From IMG/VR virus record IMGVR_UViG_3300028048_000083, positions 59,364 through 123,363 of that record: 64,000 bases of DNA; one strand, written 5' to 3'. The translations under genes were made by a program, and so were the position numbers. The first letter of the stretch is position 1; each line of letters begins with the position of its first letter. The notes under the pieces were generated by a model, which saw nothing but the letters and a program-made list of their open reading frames with translations, was not told the DNA's origin and did not search any database. Source of the stretch: a virus (lineage: Duplodnaviria > Heunggongvirae > Uroviricota > Caudoviricetes). Shown in pieces: positions 5,642-62,843 of the stretch.

Positions 5642-5678
5642 TATAACCGAAATTATTCTGTTTTTTCCAGGAAAACCA
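5642..5678 (-). promoter_or_regulatory. Conserved upstream motif (class B), instance
   Basis: Plus-strand TATAACCGAAATTATTCTGTTTTTTCCAGGAAAACC, lying upstream (minus sense) of the 4167-5615 gene. Confidence 0.4.
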
Positions 5679-5730
5679 AAAATTTTTAAAGGGGATGCGA
5701 TTACACCCCCTTTAAATGTAATCAGTTGTT

Positions 5731-6204
5731 TTAGAACGGGAGGTCATCGTCCGCTGTTGATTCTGGGACAGGCTCAGGTGTCGGGGCGGCTTTCTTTGGG
5801 GCAGCCTTTTTGGGGGCGGCTTCCTGTACAGGCTCCTGTGAGGGGACTGTTTGCATAGGTGCCGTCTGTGCATCCTGTGCGTCGTCATCGCGGCGTAATC
5901 CGCCGTAATATTGGACGTCGATTGCCCTGATATCCCTGCCAATCTCGTCATGACCTGTCTTCGTACTTGTGTAGGTACGGTCAGTTGGGGTACCGACCAC
6001 ATAGACATTGCTTCCCTTCTTAAGGGACTGGCACCATTTTTGGAGACCGCTGTCCCATACAGTGATACTATACCAATAAGTCACGTTTTCTGGGTCGTTG
6101 TATTCGTGGTTTGCCAGTCTGAATGTTGTGAATTGTCTGCCACTTGAAGTCGTCTTGACTTCTGGGTCATTACCAAGATGACCTGAAACAAAAATTGTTC
6201 TCAT
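5731..6204 (-). CDS. ssb: Single-stranded DNA-binding protein
   Basis: OB-fold-like N-terminus (MRTIFVSGHLGNDPEVKTT...), Pro/Ala/Lys-rich linker, and acidic tail ending DDDLPF. Confidence 0.85.
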   Translation of the reverse strand: MRTIFVSGHLGNDPEVKTTSSGRQFTTFRLANHEYNDPENVTYWYSITVWDSGLQKWCQSLKKGSNVYVVGTPTDRTYTSTKTGHDEIGRDIRAIDVQYYGGLRRDDDAQDAQTAPMQTVPSQEPVQEAAPKKAAPKKAAPTPEPVPESTADDDLPF

Positions 6205-7090
6205 TTTGAAATTTTTTTAATTGACTTATAATTTTAATTGACTTTGTTTGAAATTAGTGACCCCGACAGGACTCGAACCTGCAAGACCTTTCGGCACCTC
6301 TTTAGGAGAGAGGGACGCTTCCAGTTACGTGCTACGAGGCCAGTATATAAATTATCTAGTGTCGGCATACTCATATTAGTTGGCAAATAAACCGATTATT
6401 TCCATACCTTTCATGTGCTTTCAATTCCGTCAGGTTCCTTTCCATGTTCGAGCTTTCTATACCATCCAAAACACTTTTCGCTAACCTTATCCAATTCCAT
6501 GTGGTAGCATCTAACATAAACCATTGCCACAATTTTACCTGGTTTGTTATCTAGTTAAATGGTAAAATTGGCGATATTTATTAGTTTATCTCAACTATTT
6601 ACTCATGCTGAATACCCAACCTTTTACAGCCAGTTGAGCTATAGCTTTGTTTTTTAGTCAAACATACTCCTACTGGGTGAGTTGGATGGTATTAATAACC
6701 ATAGGGACGTTTCTGGACTTACCAGAGGTATGATGGTGTCTACTTACTTCCATTCACCATTAGTGCAATCCGACACAATCCGTTTATGGCTTTCACCAGT
6801 TTATGTTTCCTAAATACAGTTTCCTTACTATACTAAGGTGACTCGGTCTGTGGTTCTTACGGGACTTTGTCTTTTTGGTATTTTGTCTCTTGTTTACATA
6901 TCTACCTTAAAGTGAGACTACTTTACTTTTAAATCCAATTTTTACCATTGGACTTGTCCCGTAGTATTCCCTGTTTTGATATGGACAGGGAATTACCACT
7001 CGATAACTCGTTACCTTTTCTAACCTTTAGGGTTGTAGGATAACCGACACTAGACAAATTATTTCAAAGACCTGTTATTTAAACCTGTAA
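6205..7090. other. ORF-free ~880-bp region: candidate large structured ncRNA and/or replication origin
   Basis: No ORF of 60 aa or more in any frame across 886 bp, inside an otherwise gene-dense genome. Several local hairpins, e.g. CCCTGTtttgatatggACAGGG at 6969-6990, and a long-range stem CGGGAC(6862)/GTCCCG(6955). Flanked by ssb and the tRNA-like element. Confidence 0.3.
6258..6341 (-). tRNA. tRNA-like element, possible tRNA with CCU anticodon and long variable arm
   Basis: Read on the minus strand: acceptor GGCCUCG pairs with CGGGGUC (two G-U pairs), T-arm GCAGG-UUCGAGU-CCUGU, anticodon-like stem CCUCU/AGAGG with loop CUCCUAA, variable-arm hairpin GCC-GAAA-GGU. No encoded CCA. The D-arm is non-canonical, with 4 nt between acceptor and D-stem. 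Confidence 0.4.
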
Positions 7091-7465
7091 TTATTGATTA
7101 AGTTTATCAATAATCGAGGTTACGCTTTCGTTGACATCAATTCCAGCAAACGCCAGATTGGTGATTATAACTACCGTATTTCCGTTTGAGGATTTGTATA
7201 CCCTACTGATAATGTCGCTTGGTATGGCGATTTCATCGTTGTTTGTTACGGAATGAAGTATGATGAAATTACGGCTGTCGCCTATTTTTTTGATAATGTC
7301 GCTCGTTTTTTCATTTACCTCAAAAACTGTATCTTCTTTATCTTTAAGATAGATGGTGCTGTTTTTGGTGGTGTTAGAGTGGCTTGTAAAGCACACAATT
7401 TCATCAACGTTGAAACCAATCACTTCATTGGTGTCTTTCTTGTGCAGTATAATAAATTTGCTCAT
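7091..7465 (-). CDS. hypothetical protein
   Basis: 124-aa ORF. A GTTGTATATTTG promoter-like element (TAnnTTTG) lies immediately upstream. Confidence 0.5.
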   Translation of the reverse strand: MSKFIILHKKDTNEVIGFNVDEIVCFTSHSNTTKNSTIYLKDKEDTVFEVNEKTSDIIKKIGDSRNFIILHSVTNNDEIAIPSDIISRVYKSSNGNTVVIITNLAFAGIDVNESVTSIIDKLNQ

Positions 7466-7472
7466 TGTAATT

Positions 7473-7484
7473 CAAATATACAAC
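7473..7484 (-). promoter_or_regulatory. Bacteroidota-type -7 promoter element (TAnnTTTG)
   Basis: Minus-strand GTTGTATATTTG lies about 8 nt upstream of the ATG of the 7091-7465 gene. The same GTTGTATATT core recurs upstream of other minus-strand genes. Confidence 0.45.
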
Positions 7485-7530
7485 TTTTTTTGTTACTCAC
7501 AAAAAAATTTTTGCCAAAATAATACTAAAG

Positions 7531-7794
7531 TTAATTTTTGTAGACCATAAGCGAACCGTCACGGTTATAAAGAGGTGCAAGCAGTCCGTCTGATTCGGCT
7601 CCGCGCTGTACGGAATACATCACTTTTGTCTCTCTGTGATACACAATTCGCCAGTACTGGGTTTCTTCAATCACGACAAACATAGACGATGTGTTCTCCG
7701 TTTTATTGTTTTCAGTATATTCAATTGTGCGATAAGCGGGTGTGCATGATGCTAGCATAATCAAAGCTATGAATAAAAGACAGTATTTTTTCAT
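7531..7794 (-). CDS. Putative lipoprotein
   Basis: Likely start MKKYCLLFIALIMLASC, a signal peptide with a lipobox Cys. 88 aa. Confidence 0.5.
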   Translation of the reverse strand: MKKYCLLFIALIMLASCTPAYRTIEYTENNKTENTSSMFVVIEETQYWRIVYHRETKVMYSVQRGAESDGLLAPLYNRDGSLMVYKN

Positions 7795-7810
7795 TGTTAT
7801 TTGTTGTTTA

Positions 7811-8425
7811 TTATATAACCGTTTTTGTTGACTTTTTTCTTCGTTTTTCTTGCTTTTTTTCGGGAATCCAGTTAATGTCCATGGGCCATACTTCCAAGCC
7901 AGGTTCAAATTTGATATGGAATTTTTGGCATTCGTGTTTGTCCAATGTGAATTTTTTACCTTCAAAAGGTGTAATCTGTTTCATAATGACAATACCCATT
8001 TCAATGTCATTCACTGAATATATTGTCTTTACACATTGGTATTTGATAATAATGTCTGGCGAACCGTCTTTCGGTTTGATGCGCTGGTAGTAATATCTGC
8101 CTATCTTGAATTTGGTCTTAATCCTGTTTTTGGCTCGATGTTTGGTCAGGTATTTTGTCTGATATGTATTCTTGTTATCAGACAAAGACACGTTCTCTTC
8201 GACAGGTGAGGGAACTGGTGATGTTGACATGGTCTTTTTCTTGTGTTTTTTATTGTCAGCCATTACATATGCATTATATCCACCCGTAGTGTCAATCATG
8301 ATAGGATGACCACTTGTTACATAATATTTACCTGTAGTGTCAATCATGATAGGATGACCACTTGTTGACTCCATAACATTATTGTTTAATGTGGTTACAT
8401 ACAATTTGTTACTACTTGGATTCAA
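7811..8425 (-). CDS. hypothetical protein with internal tandem peptide repeat
   Basis: 204 aa. Two exact copies of a 33-nt unit (8296-8328 and 8343-8375) in the CDS encode TSGHPIMIDTTG twice. Basic C-terminal half. Confidence 0.5.
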   Translation of the reverse strand: MNPSSNKLYVTTLNNNVMESTSGHPIMIDTTGKYYVTSGHPIMIDTTGGYNAYVMADNKKHKKKTMSTSPVPSPVEENVSLSDNKNTYQTKYLTKHRAKNRIKTKFKIGRYYYQRIKPKDGSPDIIIKYQCVKTIYSVNDIEMGIVIMKQITPFEGKKFTLDKHECQKFHIKFEPGLEVWPMDINWIPEKKQEKRRKKSTKTVI

Positions 8426-9521
8426 TCATCTTAAGTTCACGGGAAGTCTGATTGTAGATGTCAACCAGTGCACGTTCCATGGTTTCACGGTTTTTCTCGC
8501 CAGCATCATGGATTTTGCGGACTTCTTTAAGCATTTCAATGAACTGCTTGTTGACGTCTTTGAGTGTCTCAAGTTCAACGATTGTCTGTTCACTTGCACG
8601 GGCTGTTTCCTCGGAATTGTAGCGCACGTTTTTGGCTGTAGCCTTCATCATGCGGTTGGTCGCACCTGAAACCATCTTTGTCGCATCGATTGCGCTTTTC
8701 TGTTTGTTAATCATGATGGCAAGCGCCAGTTCGTTTTTCCATAACGGCATAACCTGGTTGATTATGTTCTCGCATTTGTCGATGATGGCGTCGTTGTTGG
8801 CTTGAGCTGCCATGATATGGAACTGGTTGTTTGAAAGTATGTGCTCGGTAACTTCCAGGTCGGCGATTTTCTTGGATATTGCGTTGACCCAGTTCTGCAT
8901 GTTCTGCACATCCCACTGGCTGTTTTCAGGGTCGTTTTGCATTTCTTTGAGTTTTGCCTCATTTTCTTTCAGTTTGAGCTTAAGGGCAACAATAAGCTCC
9001 TTGAGACGGTCAATGCTGACGTCGTTGTTCCTGAACATCGATTCAAGTGTACTGTTGTCTTTTTTGGCTGTAATTTTGGCTGCGTCCATTTTGGCGCAGA
9101 TTTTCGAAACATTGTCCTGGATAGTGTCGGACTGGATAAGCACTTTGTCGACGGTCTTCACCAGGGAACGGAGAATTGGCATCGAGCGAAGGAACGCCTT
9201 GAACTTGTTGTTTGGGTCAAGGTCGCTGATGTCGACCATGTTCAGCTGAGCCAGGGTGTCGTTGACACAGGCGATAATCTCGTCGTTGTTTTTGGAACGT
9301 GCGGAAGAAAGAATACCTTCGCTTGACTGTGAAATTGTTGAATTGATTTCGCTGCCATACACCTGAAGTGTGGTTTTGTCGTTGATATCCACAGATTCGG
9401 CAATAGCAAGATAAGCCTGTTTTTCCTCGTCGCTGATGTTTGCGATATAGTTTTCATAATCCACACTGCGTTTAAGGCTCACCAGTGCGTTGTTGTTGTT
9501 GGTATTGTTATTTCCTTCCAT
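8412..9521 (-). CDS. TelA-like (toxic anion resistance family) coiled-coil protein, tentative
   Basis: 369 aa. Asn-rich N-terminus and long helical, coiled-coil-prone body. The similarity to the TelA/KlaA family is judged by eye only. Confidence 0.35.
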   Translation of the reverse strand: MEGNNNTNNNNALVSLKRSVDYENYIANISDEEKQAYLAIAESVDINDKTTLQVYGSEINSTISQSSEGILSSARSKNNDEIIACVNDTLAQLNMVDISDLDPNNKFKAFLRSMPILRSLVKTVDKVLIQSDTIQDNVSKICAKMDAAKITAKKDNSTLESMFRNNDVSIDRLKELIVALKLKLKENEAKLKEMQNDPENSQWDVQNMQNWVNAISKKIADLEVTEHILSNNQFHIMAAQANNDAIIDKCENIINQVMPLWKNELALAIMINKQKSAIDATKMVSGATNRMMKATAKNVRYNSEETARASEQTIVELETLKDVNKQFIEMLKEVRKIHDAGEKNRETMERALVDIYNQTSRELKMIESK

Positions 9522-9550
9522 TGTAAATTACTGTTTTCATTGATTTGGCA

Positions 9551-9590
9551 ATATAACCGAATTTTGTTCTTTTTTTCCGTGAAATCACAA
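9551..9590 (-). promoter_or_regulatory. Conserved upstream motif (class B), instance
   Basis: Plus-strand ATATAACCGAATTTTGTTCTTTTTTTCCGTGAAATCAC, about 30 nt upstream (minus sense) of the ATG at 9521. Confidence 0.45.
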
Positions 9591-9977
9591 AAATTTTCTG
9601 TACCAGCTGATAAGATACACGTGCTCGTCCTGTATATCCTCGATTTTCTCGGAAAGGTTGATAATCTCATACCCGTTATCCTTGAATATTTTGAGGATAT
9701 CGTTGATGTAAGGCGACATGTCCGACGGGAATGAATACACACACCTGTAATCGGTGAAAGTGTCGCCGTTTGCTGTAACCGAAGCCTTTTCGTGTATGAG
9801 TCTGTTGATTTTGTGCTGATGCATCTTAATCAGTTTGTCAACATTGGCATATTCACCGTAAGTCGCTTTGCAATATGCGACTTCGGCTGGCATCACAATC
9901 TCATCGACAGTGAATTTCGACTTAAGCCAAAATCTGACTTTATCCAGCCATGTTTGTGGTTTGTTTGTTTCTTCCAT
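9585..9977 (-). CDS. hypothetical protein
   Basis: The ORF-track entry 9585-10079 is trimmed to the internal start MEETNKPQ, which removes the overlap with the next gene. Confidence 0.4.
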   Translation of the reverse strand: MEETNKPQTWLDKVRFWLKSKFTVDEIVMPAEVAYCKATYGEYANVDKLIKMHQHKINRLIHEKASVTANGDTFTDYRCVYSFPSDMSPYINDILKIFKDNGYEIINLSEKIEDIQDEHVYLISWYRKFL

Positions 9978-9999
9978 AAAGCTAATTGGATTAAAAAAA

Positions 10000-10200
10000 C
10001 TACTCAAAAAGTGTTCTGTCAATCTCGAACGAGTGCGGGTAATATTTGTTTCCAGTGGTTTGGGACATTTCCTGAGCAACGTTGTAGGCTTTGGTAAATG
10101 TCATGAAAATCCGCATACCGCCTTCATCGTTCATTACGGGTTTGATTGTTCCTTTATCGTCCTTGTACAGGATAACATAAACTTCATTAAAATCCCCCAT
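10000..10200 (-). CDS. hypothetical small protein
   Basis: 66-aa ORF, co-directional and tightly spaced with its neighbours. Confidence 0.35.
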   Translation of the reverse strand: MGDFNEVYVILYKDDKGTIKPVMNDEGGMRIFMTFTKAYNVAQEMSQTTGNKYYPHSFEIDRTLFE

Positions 10201-10205: not shown

Positions 10206-11633
10206 TTATTTTTTAAAATTGTAATATTGTTCAACCAACGCCTTAAGATAAGGATTATTATCCGCATCAGCATAAATTTGATATTTATAACGGATGTCAA
10301 GCAGAATTTGATTCATTTTTTCAGCATCCATATGTTCTGGAAGGGTTGACTCAGCAATAGCTTTGTCAAGTGCATCTTTCTTATTTTCGAGTTCCTTTAT
10401 AAGATATTCATACTCATACTTATGGTTACGAATATCAAGTAGGAAATCAGCGTCAATACCCTTGCGGTAAATCTGAACCTTGCCAGTCTGGGCGATTTCA
10501 AGACCCATATTAAGCAGACGGAAGCAGTGCATCACATTCTTGCTGTCGTAATTGTGACCAAGATTGCTCTCATAGCGAACCTGGCTGCGTTTCTGAACCC
10601 ACTCCTGATACTGGTGGTATTTATTGCAATGTTGGGTAAACCCATCCTTATTATAAGTCATAACACAGATTGGCTCCTCATTCTTCGGAATTGAAGAACA
10701 ACGCACAGTGTCACTCTTGTTGATGTCATTGACGATATACTTAACACCATCCTCTTCAATGATTTTTGCTGCAGTTAAAACTTTGGTATCCTCGTCATAG
10801 AAGTAGTAATCACCTTTGTTATCAACCTTGATTTCTTTATTATTCTTTACTTCATCCACAGGAATCTTGACACCGTAATCCTTTACAATGCCACGATATC
10901 CGATTGGTTTTTGGGTATTATCGAACCATTCTCGTATTTCATGATGGAATAAATCAAACACGTCGTCAACCACAAAATTGTAATATTTTTTATCGTTATA
11001 AAACTCGCAGAATTCTGTATATTTGTTGTGGTTATGTGCACCGAAATCGTAATATACACCGTAGCAGTCAGGCATGTTGTTGAGTGAAACAAGACCGCAG
11101 TACTTCTGTTCAAGACCACGGGCATCAAGCCACTCCTTCATACAGGCACTACCCTGTTTGTATGAAGTAAAACAGAAATCAAGCGGCTCCTTACGTTCTG
11201 TAATGGGCTGGACACACATCTTGTTATAACCACGAGCTCGTTTAATCTGGGCAATGGCATAGCCAATAAATGAATTGAAACAATCCTTGGTCACAAACTC
11301 CTGACGATGCTTTTTAAGCTCAGTGATAATCGGGTGTTCATAGATAACAAAACGGTCGTCAATGAAAAGGGATTCAAGGATATTTGGATTACTTGAAAGC
11401 AGAAGGGTCAGATACTTCTTAAGGGAGTACCATGTATTGTCATGTTTATCATCAGCAATCTCATCCTGGAAATCAAGTCCAAGTCCAAGTACCTGGTTGA
11501 TAGGCTCAAGGTACACACCACCATGGTCTTCGTCGGACTCAGGGGTGTTGGTGCCGTATGCTACGCTTCCGCGCACATATTCATACAGGAGCCATCCGTT
11601 ATTTCTTATATCGTCAAATGTGTATTTCTTCAT
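10206..11633 (-). CDS. Pol-beta superfamily nucleotidyltransferase (COG3541-like)
   Basis: N-terminal LYEYVRGSVAYGTNTPESDEDHGGVY matches the nucleotidyltransferase GS-x-AYG...SDxD signature. 475 aa. Confidence 0.6.
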   Translation of the reverse strand: MKKYTFDDIRNNGWLLYEYVRGSVAYGTNTPESDEDHGGVYLEPINQVLGLGLDFQDEIADDKHDNTWYSLKKYLTLLLSSNPNILESLFIDDRFVIYEHPIITELKKHRQEFVTKDCFNSFIGYAIAQIKRARGYNKMCVQPITERKEPLDFCFTSYKQGSACMKEWLDARGLEQKYCGLVSLNNMPDCYGVYYDFGAHNHNKYTEFCEFYNDKKYYNFVVDDVFDLFHHEIREWFDNTQKPIGYRGIVKDYGVKIPVDEVKNNKEIKVDNKGDYYFYDEDTKVLTAAKIIEEDGVKYIVNDINKSDTVRCSSIPKNEEPICVMTYNKDGFTQHCNKYHQYQEWVQKRSQVRYESNLGHNYDSKNVMHCFRLLNMGLEIAQTGKVQIYRKGIDADFLLDIRNHKYEYEYLIKELENKKDALDKAIAESTLPEHMDAEKMNQILLDIRYKYQIYADADNNPYLKALVEQYYNFKK

Positions 11634-11648: not shown

Positions 11649-11942
11649 TTATTGTTTATTGTAGCGTTTGACAATAGAGGTGAATTCATACGGTGAAATA
11701 TGTGGGTAATAACCGAATGACAGTTCACCTGTTTCACAATTTCTGAACATATACTCGTTGATAGAATAAGGGTGATTTTTGCGGTTGGTTTCATTGTCGG
11801 CAATCTTGCCTTCATAGATATAGATACCCTGGTGGATACCGTAATGGATTTCATATCTTTTACCAGCCTCCAATACCAAATTATCCCATCCTTTGATAGT
11901 CTCAGGAGTTTTGTCAAAAATTATGTCATCGCCAAATTTCAT
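11649..11942 (-). CDS. hypothetical protein
   Basis: 97-aa ORF with a class-B upstream motif at 11965-12000. Confidence 0.45.
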   Translation of the reverse strand: MKFGDDIIFDKTPETIKGWDNLVLEAGKRYEIHYGIHQGIYIYEGKIADNETNRKNHPYSINEYMFRNCETGELSFGYYPHISPYEFTSIVKRYNKQ

Positions 11943-12001
11943 ATTTCCGAATTTTTAATTTACTATATAACCAAATCAAGACAGTTTTTTCCACAAAAAA
12001 A

Positions 12002-14151: not shown

Positions 14152-14572
14152 TTGGGTTAAAGGGTTTCCATTGGGCGTCAAAATCCACACTGAAGTGGCT
14201 TTTGTCTATTCCGTCAAGAGTGACAACAAATGCGATGGTTGAGCCGTTCTTTACACAGTCGACCGCCATTGATTCGCTCTTAAGTATCAATACTGCAATA
14301 TCAATACTTACTGGAGGGATAAAAAACCTGTTGTCATAACGGTTTTCGACTGGCTGCTGGTAATAACCGTATTTCGAAAAACTTGACTGTTCCTCAGTTG
14401 TATAGTATTCGTCCATGTCGCTTACTACGAGGACAACGTAATGTTTGCGTGTTTTTGAATCCTTGAAAGACTTCAGCACAGCATTGGTGAACATGTCTTC
14501 ATCAAATACGGACACACACTTCTGATAGGCGTCGAAATCCTCAGTGATATATTGTCTCATTATTTTTTCCAT
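14141..14572 (-). CDS. hypothetical protein
   Basis: 143-aa ORF. GTTGTATATTTTTT promoter-like element upstream (plus coordinates ~14627-14640). Confidence 0.45.
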   Translation of the reverse strand: MEKIMRQYITEDFDAYQKCVSVFDEDMFTNAVLKSFKDSKTRKHYVVLVVSDMDEYYTTEEQSSFSKYGYYQQPVENRYDNRFFIPPVSIDIAVLILKSESMAVDCVKNGSTIAFVVTLDGIDKSHFSVDFDAQWKPFNPNDQ

Positions 14573-14687
14573 GACGATATAACCATAATTGTTTCAATTT
14601 TTCCTCAAAAAAAGATTTTTTTACATAAAAAATATACAACTTTTTTCTCAGTTGTGAAAATATTTATATTATAATAAAACCTTTTGA

Positions 14688-21897: not shown

Positions 21898-21950
21898 AGG
21901 GATAGCCGACTTGTATCCCCTCTTTGATTAATATACAGCTTATTTTTAAC

Positions 21951-21986
21951 TATAACCAAAATAAACGCACTTTTTCTTTAAAAGCC
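21951..21986 (-). promoter_or_regulatory. Conserved upstream motif (class B variant), instance
   Basis: Plus-strand TATAACCAAAATAAACGCACTTTTTCTTTAAAAGCC, upstream (minus sense) of the 20801-21856 gene. Confidence 0.35.
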
Positions 21987-22092: not shown

Positions 22093-22326
22093 CTAGATTG
22101 TTGAAATGTTTATTTTTTCAAAATTTACAACTACAGTCACTATGTTCCTGTATCCGCTTACTCTGAGACTGTCTCTGATATCGTCAGCAGTCTGTTGGTC
22201 ATTGTATAAGTTGGAATCGAGAACATTTTTAAACCAATCTATACCGTTGCCGCTGATTTTGCAGAAACTGTTGTCCTCAGGGTTATGGATTACATACCGA
22301 ACGCCACTTTGTTTCATAAGATGCAT
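22093..22326 (-). CDS. hypothetical protein
   Basis: 77-aa ORF. Confidence 0.4.
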   Translation of the reverse strand: MHLMKQSGVRYVIHNPEDNSFCKISGNGIDWFKNVLDSNLYNDQQTADDIRDSLRVSGYRNIVTVVVNFEKINISTI

Positions 22327-22462
22327 TTGTTTAATTTGTTATTTAATATTTAACCATTTCTTCAAGTGCTTCATCATAAAAAACCTCGAAGCTATCCGAA
22401 AGACAACTATTTAATTTCCTTCTGTTTATTATAACCGAATTTAACTCGTTTTTTCCTTGTGT

Positions 22463-25633: not shown

Positions 25634-25903
25634 TTAATATATAAGGAGTTCATATCCTAAAGATTCTATGTAATCCCCGATTTCTGATATACTAAAATCA
25701 CTCAAGTCTCGATGATAGTATTTCCCAATTTCCCTGTTTCTCTCATTCTCTTTAAAAAACGTAGCTCTTTCATACTCATCCATGGACAACAGGATATCTT
25801 CAAGACACACGTTTACGTGTTCAACGCCATCCTGTTCCAGTTTCTGCTTTTCATATAGCGGAAGCGTATCGATAATTTTTTTCAGGCTGATTAATGTATT
25901 CAT
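25634..25903 (-). CDS. hypothetical protein
   Basis: The ORF-track entry is trimmed to the internal Met (MNTLISLKK...) so that the conserved upstream motifs at 25907-25949 lie outside the CDS. Confidence 0.4.
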   Translation of the reverse strand: MNTLISLKKIIDTLPLYEKQKLEQDGVEHVNVCLEDILLSMDEYERATFFKENERNREIGKYYHRDLSDFSISEIGDYIESLGYELLIY

Positions 25904-25971
25904 GACTATATAACCGTTTTTATGATGTTTTTTCATTATTAATATACAGAAATTTCGTGAACTTGGTAAAA

Positions 25972-33037: not shown

Positions 33038-33098
33038 ACATAACACAGCTTATTATATTACAATAACCGAAATTGTGCAACTTTTTCCACGATTCCTG

Positions 33099-38251: not shown

Positions 38252-38278
38252 GTTATATACATTTAATGCTTTAACAAA

Positions 38279-38314
38279 GATATAACCGTATCTTAGTTAT
38301 TTTTTCCGCAAAAA
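38279..38314 (-). promoter_or_regulatory. Conserved upstream motif (class B), instance
   Basis: Plus-strand GATATAACCGTATCTTAGTTATTTTTTCCGCAAAAA. Confidence 0.4.
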
Positions 38315-40618: not shown

Positions 40619-40918
40619 TCAGATTTCTTCACTTATTACGATGGCTCCTTGTATCCATATGCGTTTACCGTCAAGGTCGAAGAACACCTGGTTGTCCGCA
40701 CCGTCGTCACGTATGTCGAATTTGCCTTTGTATGTCCTGATGGTGTCTCCGTTATAGCTGTATACCGTCAATGTACGGTTGAGACCGCCACCCCAGTCAC
40801 TGCCAATGCTTTTTATTTCACGTTTGCAGCTTTGTGGACCAAAAGCAAAAAACGCAAAAGCCAAACCAACGATAATAAGTATAACCACAAAAATGCCAAA
40901 AAATGTTCTTTTTTTCAT
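40619..40918 (-). CDS. membrane-anchored protein
   Basis: N-terminal TM segment FFGIFVVILIIVGLAFAFFAF. 99 aa. Confidence 0.45.
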   Translation of the reverse strand: MKKRTFFGIFVVILIIVGLAFAFFAFGPQSCKREIKSIGSDWGGGLNRTLTVYSYNGDTIRTYKGKFDIRDDGADNQVFFDLDGKRIWIQGAIVISEEI

Positions 40919-41454
40919 ATTCTAAAATATTTTCCGTAATTAAAATTCAATTTGTCTTTAATCCTATAATATCTGGACTTGATTGTACTTTCGGGCATCC
41001 CAAACATTTTGGAAATCTCCTTGAATGTGTATTCGTCGATAGCGACAAGATTCACCAAAGTACGTTCCTCTTCAGTCAGACAGCGCATGATTTTCAGAAT
41101 CAAGTCCTGTTTCTCATAATCGGTAGCCAAATCAAAATCGTCGCTTAATTCAGGAAGGAATTCACTCTCTATTGGAAGATACCGATACTTCATGTCCTTC
41201 TTGTAGCGGTTAATGATTTGCCTCATAATTATCCTGTGCATCCATCCCTCAAAGGTTCCGTCACCCCTGTATTTTTTGATATTGGCAAATATTGACACGA
41301 AACCTTCAACCAACACATCCTGGGCAATGTCATCGTCAGCCGAATATCGTCGGCATAAAGCATAAAACTTAGGACTGTACTTGTCATATAAGGCTCGTTG
41401 CATTGAAGGGTTGTTGTTTCGGCACCCTTCTATAATGTTGTCTATATTATCCAT
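40915..41454 (-). CDS. RNA polymerase sigma factor, sigma-70 family (ECF-like)
   Basis: Region 2-like LYDKYSPKFYALCRRYSADDDIAQDVLVEGFVSIFANIKKY and region 4-like LTEEERTLVNLVAIDEYTFKEISKMFGMPESTIKSRYYRIKDKL. 179 aa. Confidence 0.85.
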   Translation of the reverse strand: MDNIDNIIEGCRNNNPSMQRALYDKYSPKFYALCRRYSADDDIAQDVLVEGFVSIFANIKKYRGDGTFEGWMHRIIMRQIINRYKKDMKYRYLPIESEFLPELSDDFDLATDYEKQDLILKIMRCLTEEERTLVNLVAIDEYTFKEISKMFGMPESTIKSRYYRIKDKLNFNYGKYFRI

Positions 41455-43367: not shown

Positions 43368-43400
43368 TAATATACAAATTTTATACGTAACACATAAAAT

Positions 43401-44596: not shown

Positions 44597-44639
44597 ATGC
44601 CTTTATAACCGAAATATGTCTGTTTTTTCTGTGATTTTG

Positions 44640-52482: not shown

Positions 52483-53421
52483 TTACTTTATGTTCTCAAT
52501 CATTTCGATATTATCCATGTACCACTTGTGGAAATTGTGGTATTCAACATCACCGACTTCATTAACCACATTACGAAGGTCATCGTAGTCACAATGCTTG
52601 ATTTTGACAATGATGCGGTTACCGCGCGGGTCTTTGATTGGGACGACAGGTCTTGCAACAATGCCTTCTTCGATAAAATCAGGATTGTCAGCATTAGGAA
52701 CCTTGGTTTTGAAGCCTTCAATCACCATTTTCTCAGCTTCATCGATAGTCATTTGACCAAGATAAGGGACAACATCCAAACCGAGATTGCCACAGTATTC
52801 GTCCAACATATTGATTGGAATCCACCAACCCTGCTGGTAGATATCAAATACACTGAAACGGTTATTCTCCTTGTCATAGTTGCCGCCGCATTTCTGGATT
52901 TTCTTTCCGAAAAACTCGCCATAGATGTATACAGGAACCTCTTCCAGCTGCACACCATAGAAATTGCCGTTCTCTTTGAAGTCAACCTCATTGATGTTTG
53001 CGATAGGTTCACCACACTCAGCCCAATAATACTGAATCTGGTTTTTGTCATTCAGAACTGGGGTGAAACGGGCACTCTCTGGCGGAAACATTTCAGTCAG
53101 GATTGGTTTGATTCGTTCAATAACCTGGTCAAGCATGGCTTTCTGACCCGTTCCGACAATATCAGCGTTATCAGTCTTGCCGCCACAGAAACATTCGCCT
53201 GTTGATGGAAGATAGATAATTTTCGAATTGGTTCCATCCAGTTTCGAAAAACAGTCGAATTTCAAATCCTTAATATATTCCATGTAATCGTCGGAGAAAC
53301 AACCCATTATAATTTTGTTTTGGAATTTAGCCCAAATCTTGTTCGGAAGTTCCACCTTGTTAAGGTTTTTGTAACGACGGTACAAGGTGTTGATTTTTTG
53401 ATATGTAAGAGTTTTTTGCAT
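52483..53421 (-). CDS. ATP-dependent RNA ligase (Rnl2-like)
   Basis: Nucleotidyltransferase motif I FSKLDGTN (KxDGxN), motif IV EGIVARP, motif V IVKIKH. 312 aa. Confidence 0.75.
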   Translation of the reverse strand: MQKTLTYQKINTLYRRYKNLNKVELPNKIWAKFQNKIIMGCFSDDYMEYIKDLKFDCFSKLDGTNSKIIYLPSTGECFCGGKTDNADIVGTGQKAMLDQVIERIKPILTEMFPPESARFTPVLNDKNQIQYYWAECGEPIANINEVDFKENGNFYGVQLEEVPVYIYGEFFGKKIQKCGGNYDKENNRFSVFDIYQQGWWIPINMLDEYCGNLGLDVVPYLGQMTIDEAEKMVIEGFKTKVPNADNPDFIEEGIVARPVVPIKDPRGNRIIVKIKHCDYDDLRNVVNEVGDVEYHNFHKWYMDNIEMIENIK

Positions 53422-53565
53422 AATTAATTTGTTTTGATTTATAAATGAAATTGCATATTTTTTTCCTTGAACAACTATGCTTTTACTTTGAAAAGCTTTT
53501 CAACCGCTTTCTTGGTGTTGGTGGGGTTCATCGCATTGGTAACCTCCTTGCTCCATCGGTTTTTG

Positions 53566-53773: not shown

Positions 53774-54064
53774 TTAAATTTCAGTGTTGTCGTCTTCATA
53801 CTGTTCATGAAGCCAGATGAGAAAGTCATATCTTCCACCGAAAGTGTCCGTCTCTGGCCACCAGTGGTCATGTTCCTCAAGGGCGCCGAATTCAAGCGCG
53901 TTGTCAAGAGTGAACTTTGGGAACACATCGCGCGGGTCTTTGCCGATATACTCCTTGACATAAGGGGTCAAAGTGAATTTGTTACTGTGCCTCTGGGCAT
54001 ACTTCTTGTAATTGTCAACCAAAATGTTGATGGCTTCTCGTCTTGTCATTTTCTTGTTTTCCAT
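53774..54064 (-). CDS. hypothetical protein
   Basis: 96-aa ORF. Confidence 0.45.
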   Translation of the reverse strand: MENKKMTRREAINILVDNYKKYAQRHSNKFTLTPYVKEYIGKDPRDVFPKFTLDNALEFGALEEHDHWWPETDTFGGRYDFLIWLHEQYEDDNTEI

Positions 54065-54218
54065 TTTTATTTGTTGTTTTTACTGTTTACATTAAGACTG
54101 GAGTCACGGATGAAGTCAAAATCTTCAAGCATCTCTTGAGAACAAGTGTACTTTTCCATTTCGTTTCAGTTTAAATTATGATTTATGTTTACTGTTAATA
54201 TACAACTTTTTTTTGAAG

Positions 54219-54255
54219 ATATAACCGAAAACATTCGGTTTTTTCAACAAAAATG
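54219..54255 (-). promoter_or_regulatory. Conserved upstream motif (class B), instance
   Basis: Plus-strand GATATAACCGAAAACATTCGGTTTTTTCAACAAAAATGG, with an internal hairpin AACCGAA..TTCGGTT. Confidence 0.4.
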
Positions 54256-54267
54256 GAGGGAATTTTT

Positions 54268-55209
54268 TCAACCCTCCAGTTTTATGTATTTTGAAAATAT
54301 GCCCTCGGAAACCTTTTTGTATTGCTGTTCTTTTCTCTTTGCAACATTCCTTTCAAACTTCTTATATTGGCTGTTTCTACCGACCAAATGATTATGATAT
54401 TGCGGGAAATTGGATATACACCATTGTACAAGAAACCCCAGGGTTTCAAATTCAACTAATCTTCTACCTGTTATTTCACTATCAACATACCACATTTTTG
54501 TTTCATCATCCTGAAATAAGAATATCAAATTTCTGGCACTGGGACCATAAAAAATAACTTGATATTGTTGGTCTCCCCAATGGTATATTTGTATACCGCT
54601 GGCTTGGAATAATACCGCACAATCGCCATATCCACTCTTTTCAGCAACACTGGCATCGTCGGCATCAAAAGCAAAATCATACCCCGCACCATACTTGTAG
54701 TTTGTTGTACCAATACCTGGGGTATAAGCTAAATTGTCTATATCGACACCATAACTAAATCCCTCTTTATACAGTCCAGGTATATTGCTGCTACTAGTCA
54801 TATGAACAAGCCATTCGTTATGTACTTCTCTTCTAAAATCAGCCACACAGAATAAAGGTTCGTCAGTATCACCCTGATAGCTTACATATTGAATGAAATC
54901 CTCACAAAATGGCTTTAAATCGGTCTCGAAATATTCAGATAACGCTTCTGCCATTTCATAATCATCCCATTGGAGTATATCTTCAGGAACTTTATCTTGT
55001 TCAATCATCTGTTCAATCGTTTCATAAGCATTTTTGTTGTTTTCCAGATAATCACGGAACAGCCATGGTAGTTTGCAAGCACATTCCCACGCTTTTTCAG
55101 CATCGTCCATGGCAAGAAATTTCTTCAATGGAACCATGTAGTCTTTGTCAAGATACTCGTTCAATGCCTTCTTTACAATACTGGCTATGTGTTTTTCGTT
55201 GATATTCAT
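54268..55209 (-). CDS. hypothetical protein
   Basis: 313-aa ORF, the last gene of the long minus-strand block. Confidence 0.5.
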   Translation of the reverse strand: MNINEKHIASIVKKALNEYLDKDYMVPLKKFLAMDDAEKAWECACKLPWLFRDYLENNKNAYETIEQMIEQDKVPEDILQWDDYEMAEALSEYFETDLKPFCEDFIQYVSYQGDTDEPLFCVADFRREVHNEWLVHMTSSSNIPGLYKEGFSYGVDIDNLAYTPGIGTTNYKYGAGYDFAFDADDASVAEKSGYGDCAVLFQASGIQIYHWGDQQYQVIFYGPSARNLIFLFQDDETKMWYVDSEITGRRLVEFETLGFLVQWCISNFPQYHNHLVGRNSQYKKFERNVAKRKEQQYKKVSEGIFSKYIKLEG

Positions 55210-58969: not shown

Positions 58970-59173
58970 TTAATACAATTTGCTGATACCTTCCCATCCC
59001 TCAACATCAAATGTCTTTCCACATGCCGCACAGGTGACGTAAGGAGATTTGGTACCGCTGATATCCGTGTACCATCTAATGTCACCCTTTTCCAATTCAA
59101 GTCTTGATTTGCAGCATGGGCAAATTCCAGTTACAGTTATTTCGTGGCGTTCAAGAATCTTCATATATAACAT
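58970..59173 (-). CDS. zinc-ribbon small protein
   Basis: Trimmed to the internal Met. CPCCKSRLE...CAACGKTF. Confidence 0.4.
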   Translation of the reverse strand: MLYMKILERHEITVTGICPCCKSRLELEKGDIRWYTDISGTKSPYVTCAACGKTFDVEGWEGISKLY

Positions 59174-61579: not shown

Positions 61580-61603
61580 TTAGCTATTCCTTTATGTTCA
61601 TTA

Positions 61604-61798
61604 TTACAGTTTTATTTTCTTAGGCTTGTTGTTGTCAGGCTTTTCCATGTATACCCAAATTTCATCTCTTTTATCCACGTTAACCATTGATACGATTCTC
61701 CAACCTTTATCAATTAATTTAGTGATTTCCACTTTTGTAATCGCGTACTGAAAAGTATCGGTAGTGCTTGCTATTTTAATACATTTGTTCACTTCCAT
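61604..61798 (-). CDS. hypothetical small protein
   Basis: 64-aa ORF. Confidence 0.35.
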   Translation of the reverse strand: MEVNKCIKIASTTDTFQYAITKVEITKLIDKGWRIVSMVNVDKRDEIWVYMEKPDNNKPKKIKL

Positions 61799-62097
61799 AG
61801 TTTAAGCCTATTATCAATCCAATTTTGTAATGACCCGTTTTCCCTGTCGCCTTGTTTCCTGTTCCAATAATCTGGACAATAGCAATCACCAGCAACGGTT
61901 TGGTATGGGCGTTCATCTCCATTATGCGCCCAGCAGTTTCCTTCGCCGAGTTTCTCAAGGACACCTTTCGGTGTTACAATCCAGCTTCTGTTTTTAGTTG
62001 CCTGATACCACCAACAGTTTATGCAATATCCGTGATTCATAATGTGATTTTTTTCATTGGAGAGATTGATACACAAATATTCCAGACTCTCAATCAA
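61789..62097 (-). CDS. hypothetical Cys/Trp-rich protein
   Basis: CINCWWYQ...NCWAHNGDERPYQTVAGDCYCPDYW. 102 aa. Confidence 0.4.
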   Translation of the reverse strand: MIESLEYLCINLSNEKNHIMNHGYCINCWWYQATKNRSWIVTPKGVLEKLGEGNCWAHNGDERPYQTVAGDCYCPDYWNRKQGDRENGSLQNWIDNRLKLWK

Positions 62098-62407
62098 ATT
62101 TTACCGACCAATCACCGACCTCGAAATTCGGTTTCCAGTTGTCATTATTCTCACAATCTTTTTTTATGTCACAAGGAATTTGTTCCACTATGTTTTTAAG
62201 CCAGGCGATAATATCTTCCTTGTTGTCATATGGTACAAACGCCTCAAGATAATCAATCGCAATATTCAACATTTTCGTGTTGTTAACCTCGTTCAATTCT
62301 GGATGTTTATAATTGATAAAATTCACCAGTTGTTTGTTGTCTGGGTTTTGCTCTTTTATTGTTTTGAGTGTCTCAAGAGCGTCTTTATATTTTGCTTTAT
62401 AGTCCAT
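62090..62407 (-). CDS. hypothetical protein
   Basis: 105-aa ORF. Confidence 0.4.
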   Translation of the reverse strand: MDYKAKYKDALETLKTIKEQNPDNKQLVNFINYKHPELNEVNNTKMLNIAIDYLEAFVPYDNKEDIIAWLKNIVEQIPCDIKKDCENNDNWKPNFEVGDWSVKFD

Positions 62408-62428
62408 ATTATTTAATTCTGAATTAAA

Positions 62429-62776
62429 TTACCAACAGATACTGTATTGGTAAGGGTGCACACTTAGGCAGTTTATACTATCGCCGTAAATCGGGTAATA
62501 TCCACCGCAAGCCGTTCTTGATGTTTTCGAATCCTTATAGTCAATTAAATAGATTATCATACCCATCACCAGTTCCTCCGTCCTTTCGTCAATGAAAACC
62601 CTTATCCTGTCTGGACGTAAGGTTTCTTTGTTATACAGTTCGGTATAGCCTGGATGTGATTTTTCAGCCTCTTTCAGAATAAGCTCGGTGTCAAATATTG
62701 TGGCAACTTCACAACTATAGGTCTTGCCCATATATTCAAAACAGCCATTCTCGATTTTTATTTCCTCTTGTTTCAT
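62429..62776 (-). CDS. hypothetical protein
   Basis: 115-aa ORF with a class-B motif at 62804-62843. Confidence 0.45.
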   Translation of the reverse strand: MKQEEIKIENGCFEYMGKTYSCEVATIFDTELILKEAEKSHPGYTELYNKETLRPDRIRVFIDERTEELVMGMIIYLIDYKDSKTSRTACGGYYPIYGDSINCLSVHPYQYSICW

Positions 62777-62803
62777 AATTTAATTTTTTTGCATTAATTC
62801 ATA

Positions 62804-62843
62804 CATATAACCGAAAACAACGGTTTTTTTCCGTAAAAACCGT
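62804..62843 (-). promoter_or_regulatory. Conserved upstream motif (class B), best instance
   Basis: Plus-strand CATATAACCGAAAACAACGGTTTTTTTCCGTAAAAACCG. The minus strand reads TTTTACGGAAAAAAACCGTTGTTTTCGGTTATATG, about 25 nt before the ATG. Confidence 0.45.

What the first reader, a model, noticed from the sequence alone, without database searches (positions are those of the whole stretch)
5642..62843. A ~36-40-nt motif repeated at least 14 times upstream of minus-strand genes: candidate phage-specific promoter class
Reading the plus strand, the string TATAACCGAAAAC..(5-10 nt)..TTTTTTCCGTAAAA recurs, with small variations. The plus-strand starts of the copies are about 5642, 9551, 11965, 21951, 22428, 25907, 33064, 38279, 44604, 49113, 54219, 59191, 60221 and 62804. 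Every copy lies in a short intergenic spacer 20-60 nt upstream (in minus sense) of a start codon. On the transcribed strand it reads TTTTACGGAAAAAAA-N-TGTTTTCGGTTATATG. Some copies include a small hairpin (AACCGAAAACAACGGTT, AACCGAAAACATTCGGTT). The motif is distinct from the host-like TTGTATATTTG (-7 TAnnTTTG) elements also present at 7473, ~14630, ~34228, ~54197 and ~25938. The window also encodes its own ECF-like sigma factor (40915-41454), so a plausible inference is that this motif is the promoter class read by the phage sigma factor (middle or late genes). Alternatively, the hairpin could make it an RNA processing or translation-control site.
Basis: seen in the sequence. Interest (0 to 1): 0.7.

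Follow-up and report, generated by a model that had tools for sequence, protein, structure and literature searches.

The report
Phage-specific promoter motif, rumen jumbo phage
A rigidly spaced two-box DNA signal sits in front of at least 16 gene cassettes in this uncultured rumen Bacteroidota jumbo phage and its relatives; it is almost certainly a phage-specific promoter class, but which protein reads it (the phage's own ECF-type sigma factor is the leading candidate) is not settled.

Summary
All 14 reported copies exist. Two further strong copies (around 7820 and 14584) and two weak ones were missed.

On the minus strand the consensus is TT-R-n-GGAAAAAA-N8-W-TT-Y-GGTTATA. GAAAAA-N13-GGTTAT (up to 1 mismatch) gives 16 matches against 1.3 expected, all on the minus strand. 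Fourteen of 16 lie in the 8.5% of the window that is non-coding.

Across 65 unique sites in this phage and its relatives:
- the spacing is exact in 61 of 66 pattern matches;
- the base 13 nt after the first G of GGTTAT is a purine in 59 of 65;
- start codons sit either exactly there (5 sites, leaderless) or 24-40 nt downstream (32 sites), and never at 17-23.

The copies share no RNA structure. The boxes are conserved at orthologous positions in relatives with 44-86% protein identity, and they invert together with an inverted gene block.

So this is a promoter class. It is distinct from the host-like TTGTATATT class that is also present.

The link to the sigma factor is plausible: the protein is ECF-type, the motif has GGAA/GTT-like boxes, and a host-like promoter lies upstream of the sigma operon. 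It is not proven. Motif-bearing relatives showed no orthologue in the parts sampled.

This is a new member of a known kind, of moderate interest.

The parts
62800..62836 (-). Promoter-like site: GGTTATA box at 62806-62812, GGAAAAAA box at 62825-62832, predicted start at 62800. Drives the 115-aa gene 62429-62776. The -35-like box lies inside a local hairpin.
   Evidence: 43.0 bits
60215..60251 (-). Promoter-like site (first G of GGTTAT at 60227). Drives gene 59627-60193/60217.
   Evidence: 38.6 bits
59186..59222 (-). Promoter-like site (first G at 59198). Drives the 67-aa gene 58970-59173.
   Evidence: 43.3 bits
54214..54250 (-). Promoter-like site (first G at 54226). A terminator-like hairpin lies just upstream (54255-54277). 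A host-like TGTATATT box follows in tandem at 54197-54204. Drives a 30-aa ORF, then gene 53774-54064.
   Evidence: (43.3 bits)
53434..53470 (-). Weak or degenerate member (GGAAAAAAA...TTTCATTTATAA), 25 nt upstream of the RNA ligase gene 52483-53421.
   Evidence: 11.8 bits
49108..49145 (-). Promoter-like site with a 14-nt spacer (first G at 49120). The ATG of the nucleotidyltransferase gene 48314-49108 lies exactly at the predicted start (leaderless candidate).
   Evidence: (23.6 bits)
44598..44634 (-). Promoter-like site (first G at 44610) at the head of the gene run 44596 to 40915 that ends in the sigma gene. An orthologous copy is at L021:6197.
   Evidence: (34.2 bits)
38275..38311 (-). Promoter-like site (first G at 38287). 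Drives the 311-aa P-loop protein gene 37316-38251. Both boxes are invariant at the orthologous sites L021:13553 and L242:6422.
   Evidence: (40.1 bits)
33056..33092 (-). Promoter-like site (first G at 33068). Drives gene 32631-33041.
   Evidence: 30.7 bits
29829..29864 (-). Possible variant with a 12-nt spacer, inside the 3' end of gene 29818-30210 and 25 nt upstream of the ATG at 29816.
25903..25939 (-). Promoter-like site (first G at 25915). An ATG lies exactly at the predicted start, 25903 (leaderless candidate). A host-like TGTATATT box sits immediately upstream at 25941-25948.
   Evidence: (32.2 bits)
22424..22460 (-). Promoter-like site (first G at 22436). The next minus-strand ORF (22093-22326) starts 110 nt downstream.
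   Evidence: (34.0 bits)
21945..21981 (-). Promoter-like site (first G at 21957), followed by a host-like TGTATATT box at 21930-21937. A 101-nt leader precedes gene 20801-21856.
   Evidence: (32.8 bits)
14572..14608 (-). The ATG at 14572 lies exactly at the predicted start (leaderless candidate). A host-like box lies upstream at 14631-14638.
   Evidence: (38.7 bits)
11960..11996 (-). Promoter-like site (first G at 11972). Drives gene 11649-11942.
   Evidence: 38.1 bits
9546..9582 (-). Promoter-like site (first G at 9558). Drives the TelA-like gene 8412-9521. The corresponding block in L326 has a copy at 1802.
   Evidence: (40.9 bits)
7808..7844 (-). It overlaps the 3' end of gene 7811-8374 and drives gene 7531-7794.
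   Evidence: (28.2 bits)
5636..5672 (-). Promoter-like site (first G at 5648). A terminator-like hairpin lies upstream at 5688-5713. Drives the Ro/TROVE-like gene 4167-5615. An orthologous copy is at L326:6694.
   Evidence: (40.5 bits)
40915..41454 (-). ECF-type sigma factor gene (179 aa; Sigma70_r2 plus Sigma70_r4_2). Candidate reader of the motif.
   Evidence: (TIGR02937, 83.6 bits against a 42.9 cut-off)
43369..43376 (-). Host-like -7 box (TTTGTATATTAA) upstream of the AAA-ATPase gene (42063-43367) in the operon that contains the sigma gene. Candidate early promoter for sigma expression.

Best explanation
The motif is a promoter class specific to a clade of rumen or ruminant-gut Bacteroidota jumbo phages. 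Read on the coding strand it is T(-36) T/C R n GGAAAAAA(-32 to -25), an 8-nt variable spacer, W TT Y GGTTATA(-16 to -6), and a purine start 7 nt after the last conserved T of GGTTAT. It restarts transcription in front of cassettes of small accessory and nucleic-acid-metabolism genes, sometimes directly after a terminator-like hairpin. It gives either leaderless mRNAs or leaders of about 12-28 nt.

Inferred mechanism: host core RNA polymerase carries a phage-encoded specificity subunit. In this phage that subunit is most likely the ECF-type sigma at 40915-41454. Region 4 would read the GGAAAAAA box and region 2 the GGTTATA box. The sigma itself would first be made from a host-sigmaA-like promoter (TTGTATATT class, at 43376) and then reinforced from the motif copy at 44610.

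Shown: the motif, its geometry, its placement and its conservation.
For: Promoter nature:
- 16 of 16 strong copies are on the coding strand, against 1.26 expected on both strands together.
- 14 of 16 lie in the 8.5% of the window that is non-coding.
- It is the top spaced dyad in an unbiased count.
- The spacer is exactly 13 nt in 61 of 66 pattern matches across the phages examined.
- In 65 unique sites, position +13 from the first G of GGTTAT is a purine in 59, while neighbouring positions show no such bias.
- Start codons lie exactly at that position in 5 sites, at 24-40 nt in 32 sites, and never at 17-23 nt. This is the pattern expected if transcription starts there.
- 57 of 65 sites have a co-oriented ORF start within 200 nt.
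- There is no shared RNA structure.
- Both boxes are invariant, while spacer and flanks diverge, at orthologous sites in L021 and L242 and in the 378-kb contig L326.
- The copy just left of the window is on the plus strand and drives plus-strand genes. A block that is inverted relative to L326 carries inverted motifs.
- In 854 kb around matches in cellular genomes, only one locus held a second hit, and no locus held a cluster like those in the phage contigs.

Distinct from host promoters: a second class, aaaaaGTTGTATATT(TG), fits the Bacteroidota TTTG-N19-21-TAnnTTTG type. It resembles promoters on Bacteroidales contigs.

Sigma link:
- The gene is an ECF-type sigma with both DNA-reading regions.
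- The best solved relatives are M. tuberculosis SigE, E. coli sigmaE and B. subtilis SigW. From my own knowledge, their promoters are GGAAC-like plus (C)GT(T/C)-like boxes with a rigid spacer. This motif reads GGAAA-N16-GTT.
- The phage contigs with a sigma orthologue carry the motif: L021 (48% identity) has 4 copies and L242 (52%) has 2.
- A host-like box precedes the AAA-ATPase/sigma operon in the window and in L242.
Against: No transcript, binding or timing data exist.

The sigma orthologue looks restricted. Only 2 clusters were found by the word-indexed search. Only 11 representatives score E<=1e-30, the best full-length ones at about 40% identity. One of these, when examined, was a chromosomal Bacteroidota ECF sigma.

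In contrast, the motif is abundant in related jumbo-phage contigs. IMG/VR 3300031760_000001 (245 kb) has at least 13 copies, and L326 has 4 copies in 20 kb. No orthologue was seen in the sampled DNA of these contigs, nor by peptide-pattern scans of IMG/VR. These genomes were only partly sampled.

A close relative of the 245-kb phage encodes a different 226-aa sigma70-family protein. That protein could equally be a reader.

The -35-like box lacks the AAC typical of ECF promoters, and the -10-like box lacks CGT.

The sigma gene lies downstream of a motif copy (44610). This fits autoregulation, but it would also fit the sigma simply being one of the motif-driven genes.
Confidence: 0.45

Rival explanations
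1. It is a phage-specific promoter, but another phage factor reads it. Candidates are a different phage sigma (such as the 226-aa sigma70-family protein seen in a jumbo relative), a MotA/AsiA-type activator that redirects host sigmaA to a box centred near -29, or a phage-encoded RNA polymerase. The ECF sigma in the window would then serve another gene set.
For: The motif is spread over a broad jumbo-phage clade. The ECF sigma orthologue was found on only three phage contigs. L320 carries a different sigma-like gene. The GGAAAAAA box lies at -32 to -25, where T4 MotA boxes sit (from my own knowledge). About a third of sites have TTTG at -37 to -34, like the host -33 element. Several sites are in tandem with, or overlap, host-like boxes.
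Against: No homologue of the 226-aa sigma occurs in the window or in any other fetched locus. No RNA polymerase-like or MotA-like gene was identified. The -10-like box does not resemble the host TAnnTTTG element. The other genomes were only partly sampled, so absence of the ECF sigma there is not shown.
Confidence: 0.33
2. It is a promoter read entirely by host machinery, through an alternative host sigma factor (an ECF-type sigma, or the reader of the non-canonical 'PM2' promoters of Bacteroides). Several phages of the same hosts would be exploiting it.
For: The closest relatives of the phage sigma are chromosomal Bacteroidales ECF sigmas at about 40-44% identity. B. thetaiotaomicron has a second promoter type with elements near -10 and -30 (PMC7366714). 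Those are the same positions as the two boxes here.
Against: In 854 kb of DNA around 120 exact matches in cellular genomes, no locus showed clustering like that in the phage contigs. About 125 kb around seven host sigma homologues held no hit, even at low score. In the stored (truncated) B. thetaiotaomicron TSS-upstream table, GGTTATA occurs 9 times over three conditions, and the one instance shown was far upstream of the TSS; the two boxes together were not searched for. The PM2 consensus sequence could not be retrieved, so this rival is not fully tested.
Confidence: 0.1
3. It is not a promoter. It would instead be an operator for a phage DNA-binding regulator, or an RNA-level signal (processing or translation control) in polycistronic transcripts.
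For: Two or three copies contain small hairpins. Some copies sit only 12 nt from an ATG. A few copies lie in tandem with host-like promoter boxes, where an operator could act.
Against: There is no consensus structure or covariation over 15 copies. The two boxes are neither palindromic nor direct repeats. The distance to the ATG ranges from 12 to over 100 nt, which argues against a translational operator. A purine at a fixed +13 and the gap at 17-23 nt are features of a start site. Some copies directly follow terminator-like hairpins.
Confidence: 0.07
4. It is a chance pattern or a small mobile repeat with no regulatory role.
For: The sequence is A+T-rich and of low complexity.
Against: 0 of 100 shuffles reach the observed count. 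The strand bias is complete. The boxes are conserved at orthologous positions while the 8-11-nt spacer and the flanks differ between copies, unlike copies of a mobile element.
Confidence: 0.02

Closest known systems
Late promoters of Salmonella phage 7-11, read by the phage sigma SaPh711_gp47 (consensus GTAAtg-N16-aCTA). Related case: phiEco32 gp36 promoters (tAATGTAtA). Source: PMC8948821.
   Same: A phage-encoded sigma70-family protein joins host core polymerase and reads a bipartite, rigidly spaced consensus unlike the host's. The consensus is repeated upstream of phage gene clusters, with starts 6-9 nt downstream of the -10-like element.
   Different: That case is experimentally proven. 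It involves 8 promoters upstream of late genes in a ~90-kb enterobacterial podovirus.
Bacillus phage SPO1 cascade: host sigmaA early promoters, then gp28 middle promoters, then gp33/34 late promoters (from my own knowledge; see also PMC13401047, listed).
   Same: Host-type promoters and a separate phage-sigma promoter class coexist in one genome. A sigma gene is expressed early from a host-type promoter.
   Different: The host phylum and the consensus sequences differ. No temporal data exist here.
ECF sigma promoters, such as M. tuberculosis SigE/SigH and S. coelicolor SigR (GGAA[C/T]-N16-18-GTT), E. coli sigmaE and B. subtilis SigW (from my own knowledge; these proteins are the closest solved relatives).
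   Same: There is a high-information -35-like box beginning GGAA and a -10-like box containing GTT. The spacer is very rigid. A copy lies upstream of the sigma's own operon.
   Different: The conserved C of AAC is replaced by an A-run. The -10-like box is GGTTATA rather than CGT. The two boxes are about 2 nt closer together. No anti-sigma factor was identified.
Phage T4 middle promoters (a MotA box near -30 plus a host-type -10 element, with AsiA). From my own knowledge.
   Same: A phage-specific box centred near -29 replaces the host -35/-33 element. Many genes have tandem early and phage-specific promoters.
   Different: Here the -10-like box is also non-host. No MotA or AsiA homologue was identified.
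Bacteroidota housekeeping sigmaA promoter (TTTG at -33, TAnnTTTG at -7). Sources: PMC7366714; Bayley et al. 2000, as cited in PMC13472631.
   Same: The phylum is the same. Short A-rich leaders without a Shine-Dalgarno sequence follow. Some copies carry TTTG just upstream of the GGAAAAAA box.
   Different: No TAnnTTTG element lies at the right distance, and the spacing is incompatible (14 nt rather than 19-21). The window contains a separate class (TTGTATATT) that does fit the host type.

Membership tests
sigma70-family-dependent bacterial or phage promoter | Two conserved blocks with fixed spacing, upstream of genes and co-oriented with them | tested here: met
   Spacer is exact in 61 of 66 matches. 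All 16 strong window copies are on the coding strand. 57 of 65 sites have a co-oriented ORF start within 200 nt.
sigma70-family-dependent bacterial or phage promoter | Transcription starts about 7 nt downstream of the -10 element, usually at a purine | tested here: inconclusive
   Indirect evidence only: a purine in 59 of 65 sites at +13 from the first G, ATG exactly there in 5 sites, and no ATG at 17-23 nt. No 5'-end data exist.
sigma70-family-dependent bacterial or phage promoter | Holoenzyme binds and initiates at the site | not testable with these tools
   Needs in vitro transcription or ChIP.
ECF-sigma-type promoter | -35 element with a conserved GGAAC/AAC core | tested here: not met
   The consensus is GGAAAAAA. 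C is absent at all A positions in 65 sites. Only the GGAA part matches.
ECF-sigma-type promoter | -10 element with a CGT/GTT core and a rigid 16-17-nt spacer | tested here: inconclusive
   Y-GGTTATA contains GTT 16 nt after GGAAA, and the spacing is rigid. The canonical CGT is not present.
ECF-sigma-type promoter | A cognate ECF sigma is encoded and preceded by its own promoter (autoregulation) | tested here: inconclusive
   An ECF-type sigma is present. A motif copy lies 3.2 kb upstream in the same gene run, and the same arrangement holds in L021. Co-transcription is not shown.
Bacteroidota sigmaA promoter (-33 TTTG / -7 TAnnTTTG) | TAnnTTTG centred near -7 and TTTG 19-21 nt upstream of it | tested here: not met
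   The -10-like box is GGTTATA. A TTYG lies just 5' of it, but only 14 nt from the upstream TTTG-like element.
Structured RNA element (processing or translation control) | Conserved secondary structure with covariation | tested here: not met
   RNAalifold predicts 0 pairs over 15 copies. No Rfam match.

The most novel reading that the evidence does not exclude
A whole clade of roughly 250-400-kb jumbo phages of ruminant-gut Bacteroidota shares one high-information promoter class. That class produces both leaderless and short-leader mRNAs. It is read by a specificity factor not yet identified: either a host ECF sigma captured by one sub-lineage, or a clade-wide sigma or polymerase of a new type. 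This would be the first defined non-sigmaA promoter system for Bacteroidota phages.
Probability: 0.3. Interest if true: 0.6.

Novelty: new member of a known kind. Interest (0 to 1): 0.45.

Why it matters
Very little is known about how phages of Bacteroidota, the dominant gut and rumen phylum, programme transcription. The host's own promoters are already atypical.

A sharply defined, easily searchable promoter consensus has several uses:
- It marks transcription units in otherwise unannotatable jumbo-phage genomes.
- It gives a candidate sigma/promoter pair that is directly testable in vitro.
- It predicts leaderless mRNAs in a phylum where about 3.7% of B. thetaiotaomicron 5' UTRs were reported as shorter than 10 nt (PMC7366714).
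- It could supply orthogonal expression parts for Bacteroides or Prevotella engineering.

It is nevertheless an instance of a familiar strategy, phage-specific promoters, and not a new principle.

Tried and rejected
1. Close relatives among deposited phages: none found by DNA search. By protein, the sigma has only 20-32% matches, in crAss-like phages and Bacteroides phage SJC03. A 40-kb stretch of SJC03 (23% G+C) has no motif.
2. IMG/VR contigs with 28-33% sigma relatives: no motif. This is uninformative, because the sigmas are too diverged.
3. Metagenome contigs with sigma relatives at 44% identity or less: no motif. Those at 40-44% turned out to be Bacteroidales chromosomal contigs with canonical TAnnTTTG promoters. 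A de novo dyad search in the 37-40% phage-like loci found nothing usable.
5. B. thetaiotaomicron 'PM2' promoter: the consensus appears only in a figure. The supplementary tables gave no matching sequences. Left untested.
6. Link to dCas12f-sigmaE RNA-guided transcription (PMC13472631): considered because the window holds a TnpB-like gene. Rejected as an explanation. The TnpB gene is 5.4 kb from the sigma gene and on the other strand, it matches ordinary TnpB models, and that system needs no promoter motif.
7. Retrieving the sigma neighbourhood in IMG/VR through the conserved AAA-ATPase: no hits.
8. Searching for any sigma in sampled parts of motif-rich IMG/VR contigs: none among 85 ORFs (25 of the 30 matched families were shown) and none by profile search.
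9. Canonical sigma70 promoters and intrinsic terminators: not enriched in 36-56 kb.
10. The left 17.5 kb of the window's own 81.5-kb contig could not be fetched.

Full report
**What the window is.** The window is 64 kb at about 38% G+C. Nearly all genes are on the minus strand. It has no close relative among deposited phages.

The annotated products are non-structural. They are:
- a Ro/TROVE-like RNA-binding protein;
- SSB;
- TelA;
- two nucleotidyltransferases;
- RNA ligase;
- a Thg1-like tRNA-His guanylyltransferase;
- a phosphoesterase;
- HNH and LAGLIDADG endonucleases;
- AAA ATPases;
- DUF1848;
- a TnpB insertion;
- one ECF-type sigma factor.

Exact-protein look-ups place the window on an 81.5-kb ENA contig. 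Orthologous blocks with 44-86% protein identity occur on contigs of 139 kb and 378 kb. Homologues of two flanking or related genes lie on contigs of 250-400 kb from bovine or ruminant samples. The phage therefore belongs to a clade of ruminant-gut jumbo phages.

Three observations point to a Bacteroidota host:
- start codons lack Shine-Dalgarno sequences and are preceded by A-rich leaders;
- promoter-like sites of the TTTG-N19-TAnnTTTG type are present;
- the sigma's nearest relatives are chromosomal Bacteroidales ECF sigmas.

**The observation.** All 14 reported copies are real.

- GAAAAA-N13-GGTTAT (up to 1 mismatch) has 16 matches, all on the minus strand, against 1.26 expected. No shuffle out of 100 reaches 16.
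- A weight matrix separates 16 sites (at least 23.6 bits) from everything else (14.7 bits or less).
- An unbiased dyad count ranks this motif first on the minus strand.
- Fourteen of 16 cores are in the 8.5% of the window that my ORF calls leave non-coding. The other two sit at gene boundaries.

**Anatomy.** I pooled 65 unique sites from the window and related contigs. I number positions so that the 13th base after the first G of GGTTAT is +1. The consensus is then:
- T(-36), T/C(-35), R(-34), n;
- G(-32) G A A A A A A(-25);
- eight unconserved bases;
- W(-16) T T Y(-13);
- G(-12) G T T A T A(-6).

The distance between GAAAAA and GGTTAT is exactly 13 nt in 61 of 66 pattern matches.

Position +1 is a purine in 59 of 65 sites (A 34, G 25). 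Its neighbours show no such bias.

The first ATG that opens an ORF lies exactly at +1 in five sites. Three are in the window (49108, 25903, 14572). It lies 24-40 nt from the first G in 32 sites and never at 17-23 nt. This bimodal pattern is what one expects if RNA starts at +1. The message is then either leaderless or has a leader long enough for Bacteroidota-type initiation; the most common 5' UTR length in B. thetaiotaomicron is 23 nt (PMC7366714).

The 15 equally spaced window copies share no secondary structure: RNAalifold predicts 0 pairs. In two cases (5688-5713 and 54255-54277) a G+C-rich hairpin plus a T-run lies immediately upstream of the motif. That looks like a terminator followed by a restart.

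**Comparative evidence.**
- The phage contig L021 (sigma 48% identical) has four copies on the gene strand, two of them at syntenic positions.
- L242 (sigma 52% identical) has two copies.
- In a three-way alignment of the region upstream of the orthologous P-loop gene, both boxes are invariant while the spacer and flanks differ.
- L326, from a 378-kb contig collinear with window 5-10200, has copies in front of the Ro-like gene, the TelA block and the glucosaminidase block.
- In L326 all these genes are on one strand. In the window's phage the Ro/TelA block is inverted relative to the glucosaminidase block, and the motifs are inverted with it. The copy in front of the glucosaminidase gene, about 0.8 kb left of the window, is on the plus strand.
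- Three more copies lie just right of the window.
- Pattern scans of IMG/VR recovered further motif-rich contigs. These include a 245-kb contig with at least 13 copies, always co-oriented with the next ORF.
- These contigs share a few genes with the window's relatives. The two gene families queried each list a 44,136-bp contig, which suggests that both families belong to the same jumbo-phage assemblage.
- Cellular genomes gave only scattered hits.

**Why this is a promoter.** The following features together fit a promoter for a sigma70-family holoenzyme and leave little room for chance, a mobile repeat, an operator or an RNA signal:
- strand and intergenic placement;
- two non-symmetric, high-information boxes at a rigid distance;
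- a purine 7 nt after the -10-like hexamer;
- the start-codon distance pattern;
- position directly after terminator-like hairpins at two sites;
- box-only conservation at orthologous sites;
- co-inversion with genes.

I put the promoter reading at about 0.85-0.9.

**A second promoter class.** TGTATATT occurs 23 times against 5 expected. Twelve minus-strand copies are intergenic, with the context aaaaa(g)TTGTATATT(tg/aa) and a TTTG/TTTC about 19-22 nt upstream. Two copies are perfect TAnnTTTG boxes. The class resembles promoters on Bacteroidales chromosomal contigs, such as aaatttgTATCTTTGcag. I read it as the host-sigmaA-type (early) class; that assignment is inferred.

Four of these copies are in tandem with the main motif (14638, 21937, 25948, 54204). 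In three relatives a TTGTATATTTG box sits inside the main motif's spacer. One copy (43376) precedes the AAA-ATPase gene that heads the run ending in the sigma gene, and L242 has a similar box there.

**Who reads the main motif.**

In favour of the sigma at 40915-41454:
- It is a bona fide ECF-type protein with regions 2 and 4.
- Its best solved relatives are M. tuberculosis SigE, E. coli sigmaE and SigW.
- ECF promoters are known for high information content and an inflexible spacer, with GGAA(C/T) and (C)GT(T/C) cores (from my own knowledge). The motif reads GGAAA-N16-GTT.
- All phage contigs found with an orthologue carry the motif.
- The gene can be reached from a host-type promoter and also from a motif copy (44610). 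That would give an early-on, self-reinforcing circuit.

Against it:
- The orthologue looks rare.
- Its nearest neighbours are host chromosomal ECF sigmas whose loci lack the motif.
- The motif is widespread in related jumbo phages, where neither profile searches of the sampled DNA nor peptide-pattern scans of IMG/VR found an orthologue.
- L320, a relative of the 245-kb phage with 89% identity in one protein, encodes a different 226-aa sigma70-family protein. That protein has no homologue in the window.

All those other genomes were only partly sampled, so the negative evidence is weak. I therefore give about 0.45 to the full statement (promoter plus this sigma), about 0.33 to another phage-encoded reader, and about 0.1 to a host alternative sigma.

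**Temporal class.** Motif-driven genes in the window and its relatives are accessory, RNA-repair, DNA-metabolism and one glucosaminidase gene. In the sampled structural-looking blocks of relatives, no copy was seen. Together with the tandem arrangement with host-like boxes, this fits a 'middle'-type class better than a late one. That is inference only.

**Novelty.** Full-text searches found no description of this motif, or of a sigma/promoter pair in Bacteroidota phages. The closest proven analogue is phage 7-11, whose sigma reads GTAAtg-N16-aCTA. The finding is a new member of a known kind. It is well defined, immediately testable and useful for annotation, but it is not a new principle.

Noticed in passing
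window 3421-55238, minus strand. Intergenic copies end at 3428, 7482, 14638, 20208, 21937, 25948, 34234, 35778, 43376, 48303, 54204 and 55238.: A second over-represented promoter-like class, aaaaa(g)TTGTATATT(tg/aa): 23 copies against 5 expected. It resembles the Bacteroidota sigmaA -7 box with TTTG about 19-22 nt upstream. Four copies are in tandem with the main motif. It is also the only class seen in 20 kb of the jumbo relative L320.
   Followed up: partly
window 6518-7090 (minus strand), next to tRNA-Arg(CCT) 6257-6341 and the Ro/TROVE-like gene 4167-5615: A 573-nt ORF-free stretch folds better than all shuffles (z = -3.46). It contains a tRNA-like D-arm string (GCUAUAGCUCAACUGGCU). There is no Rfam match. 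It may be a Y-RNA-like (YrlA-type) partner of the Ro-like protein.
   Followed up: partly
window 34327-35496 (+): A TnpB-family gene (guided_TnpB, 145 bits; OrfB_IS605 plus Cas12f1-like TNB domain) lies on the opposite strand to its neighbours. It is probably an IS200/IS605-type insertion. It is not adjacent to the sigma gene, so it is unlikely to be a dCas12f-sigmaE system.
   Followed up: partly
window 607-2487 (+): A 626-aa exonuclease-like protein carries a LAGLIDADG/Hint-type insert of about 340 aa. The orthologue in the 378-kb relative is 287 aa and lacks the insert. This points to an intein or homing-endonuclease polymorphism.
   Followed up: partly
window 1-10200 compared with L326: The Ro-like/SSB/TelA block is inverted relative to the glucosaminidase block when compared with the collinear 378-kb relative. 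The promoter motifs follow the genes.
   Followed up: yes
window 10206-11633, 22463-23281, 23963-24829, 48314-49108, 52483-53421, 4167-5615: An unusually rich RNA-repair or tRNA-maintenance gene set: two nucleotidyltransferases, Thg1-like tRNA-His guanylyltransferase, a phosphoesterase, RNA ligase and a Ro-like protein.
   Followed up: no
window 5688-5713, 54255-54277, 62819-62844 (minus strand): G+C-rich hairpins followed by T-runs lie directly upstream of the main motif at 5648 and 54226. At 62812 the hairpin overlaps the -35-like box. These look like terminator-promoter junctions. The generic terminator scan did not flag them.
   Followed up: partly
L021:14563, L189:3179, L174:2256: Composite sites in relatives where a host-like TTGTATATTTG box sits inside the spacer of the main motif (GGAAAAAAAGTTGTATATTTGGTTATA). 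This would place two predicted start sites within a few bases of each other.
   Followed up: no
L168:306-878 (IMG/VR 3300031760_000001): The 245-kb motif-bearing jumbo phage encodes a translation initiation factor IF3 homologue (IF3_C 9.7e-23, IF3_N 3.8e-12).
   Followed up: no
L007:3686-4243: In another motif-bearing phage contig, a copy of the motif drives an HNH homing-endonuclease gene that is oriented against its neighbours. This suggests that mobile genes carry or acquire this promoter.
   Followed up: no
window 40915-41454 compared with L243-L247 and L328: The nearest relatives of the phage sigma (39-44% identity) are chromosomal Bacteroidales ECF sigmas next to T9SS-type (CHU_C, Por_Secre_tail) genes. 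The phage gene therefore looks like a host capture.
   Followed up: partly
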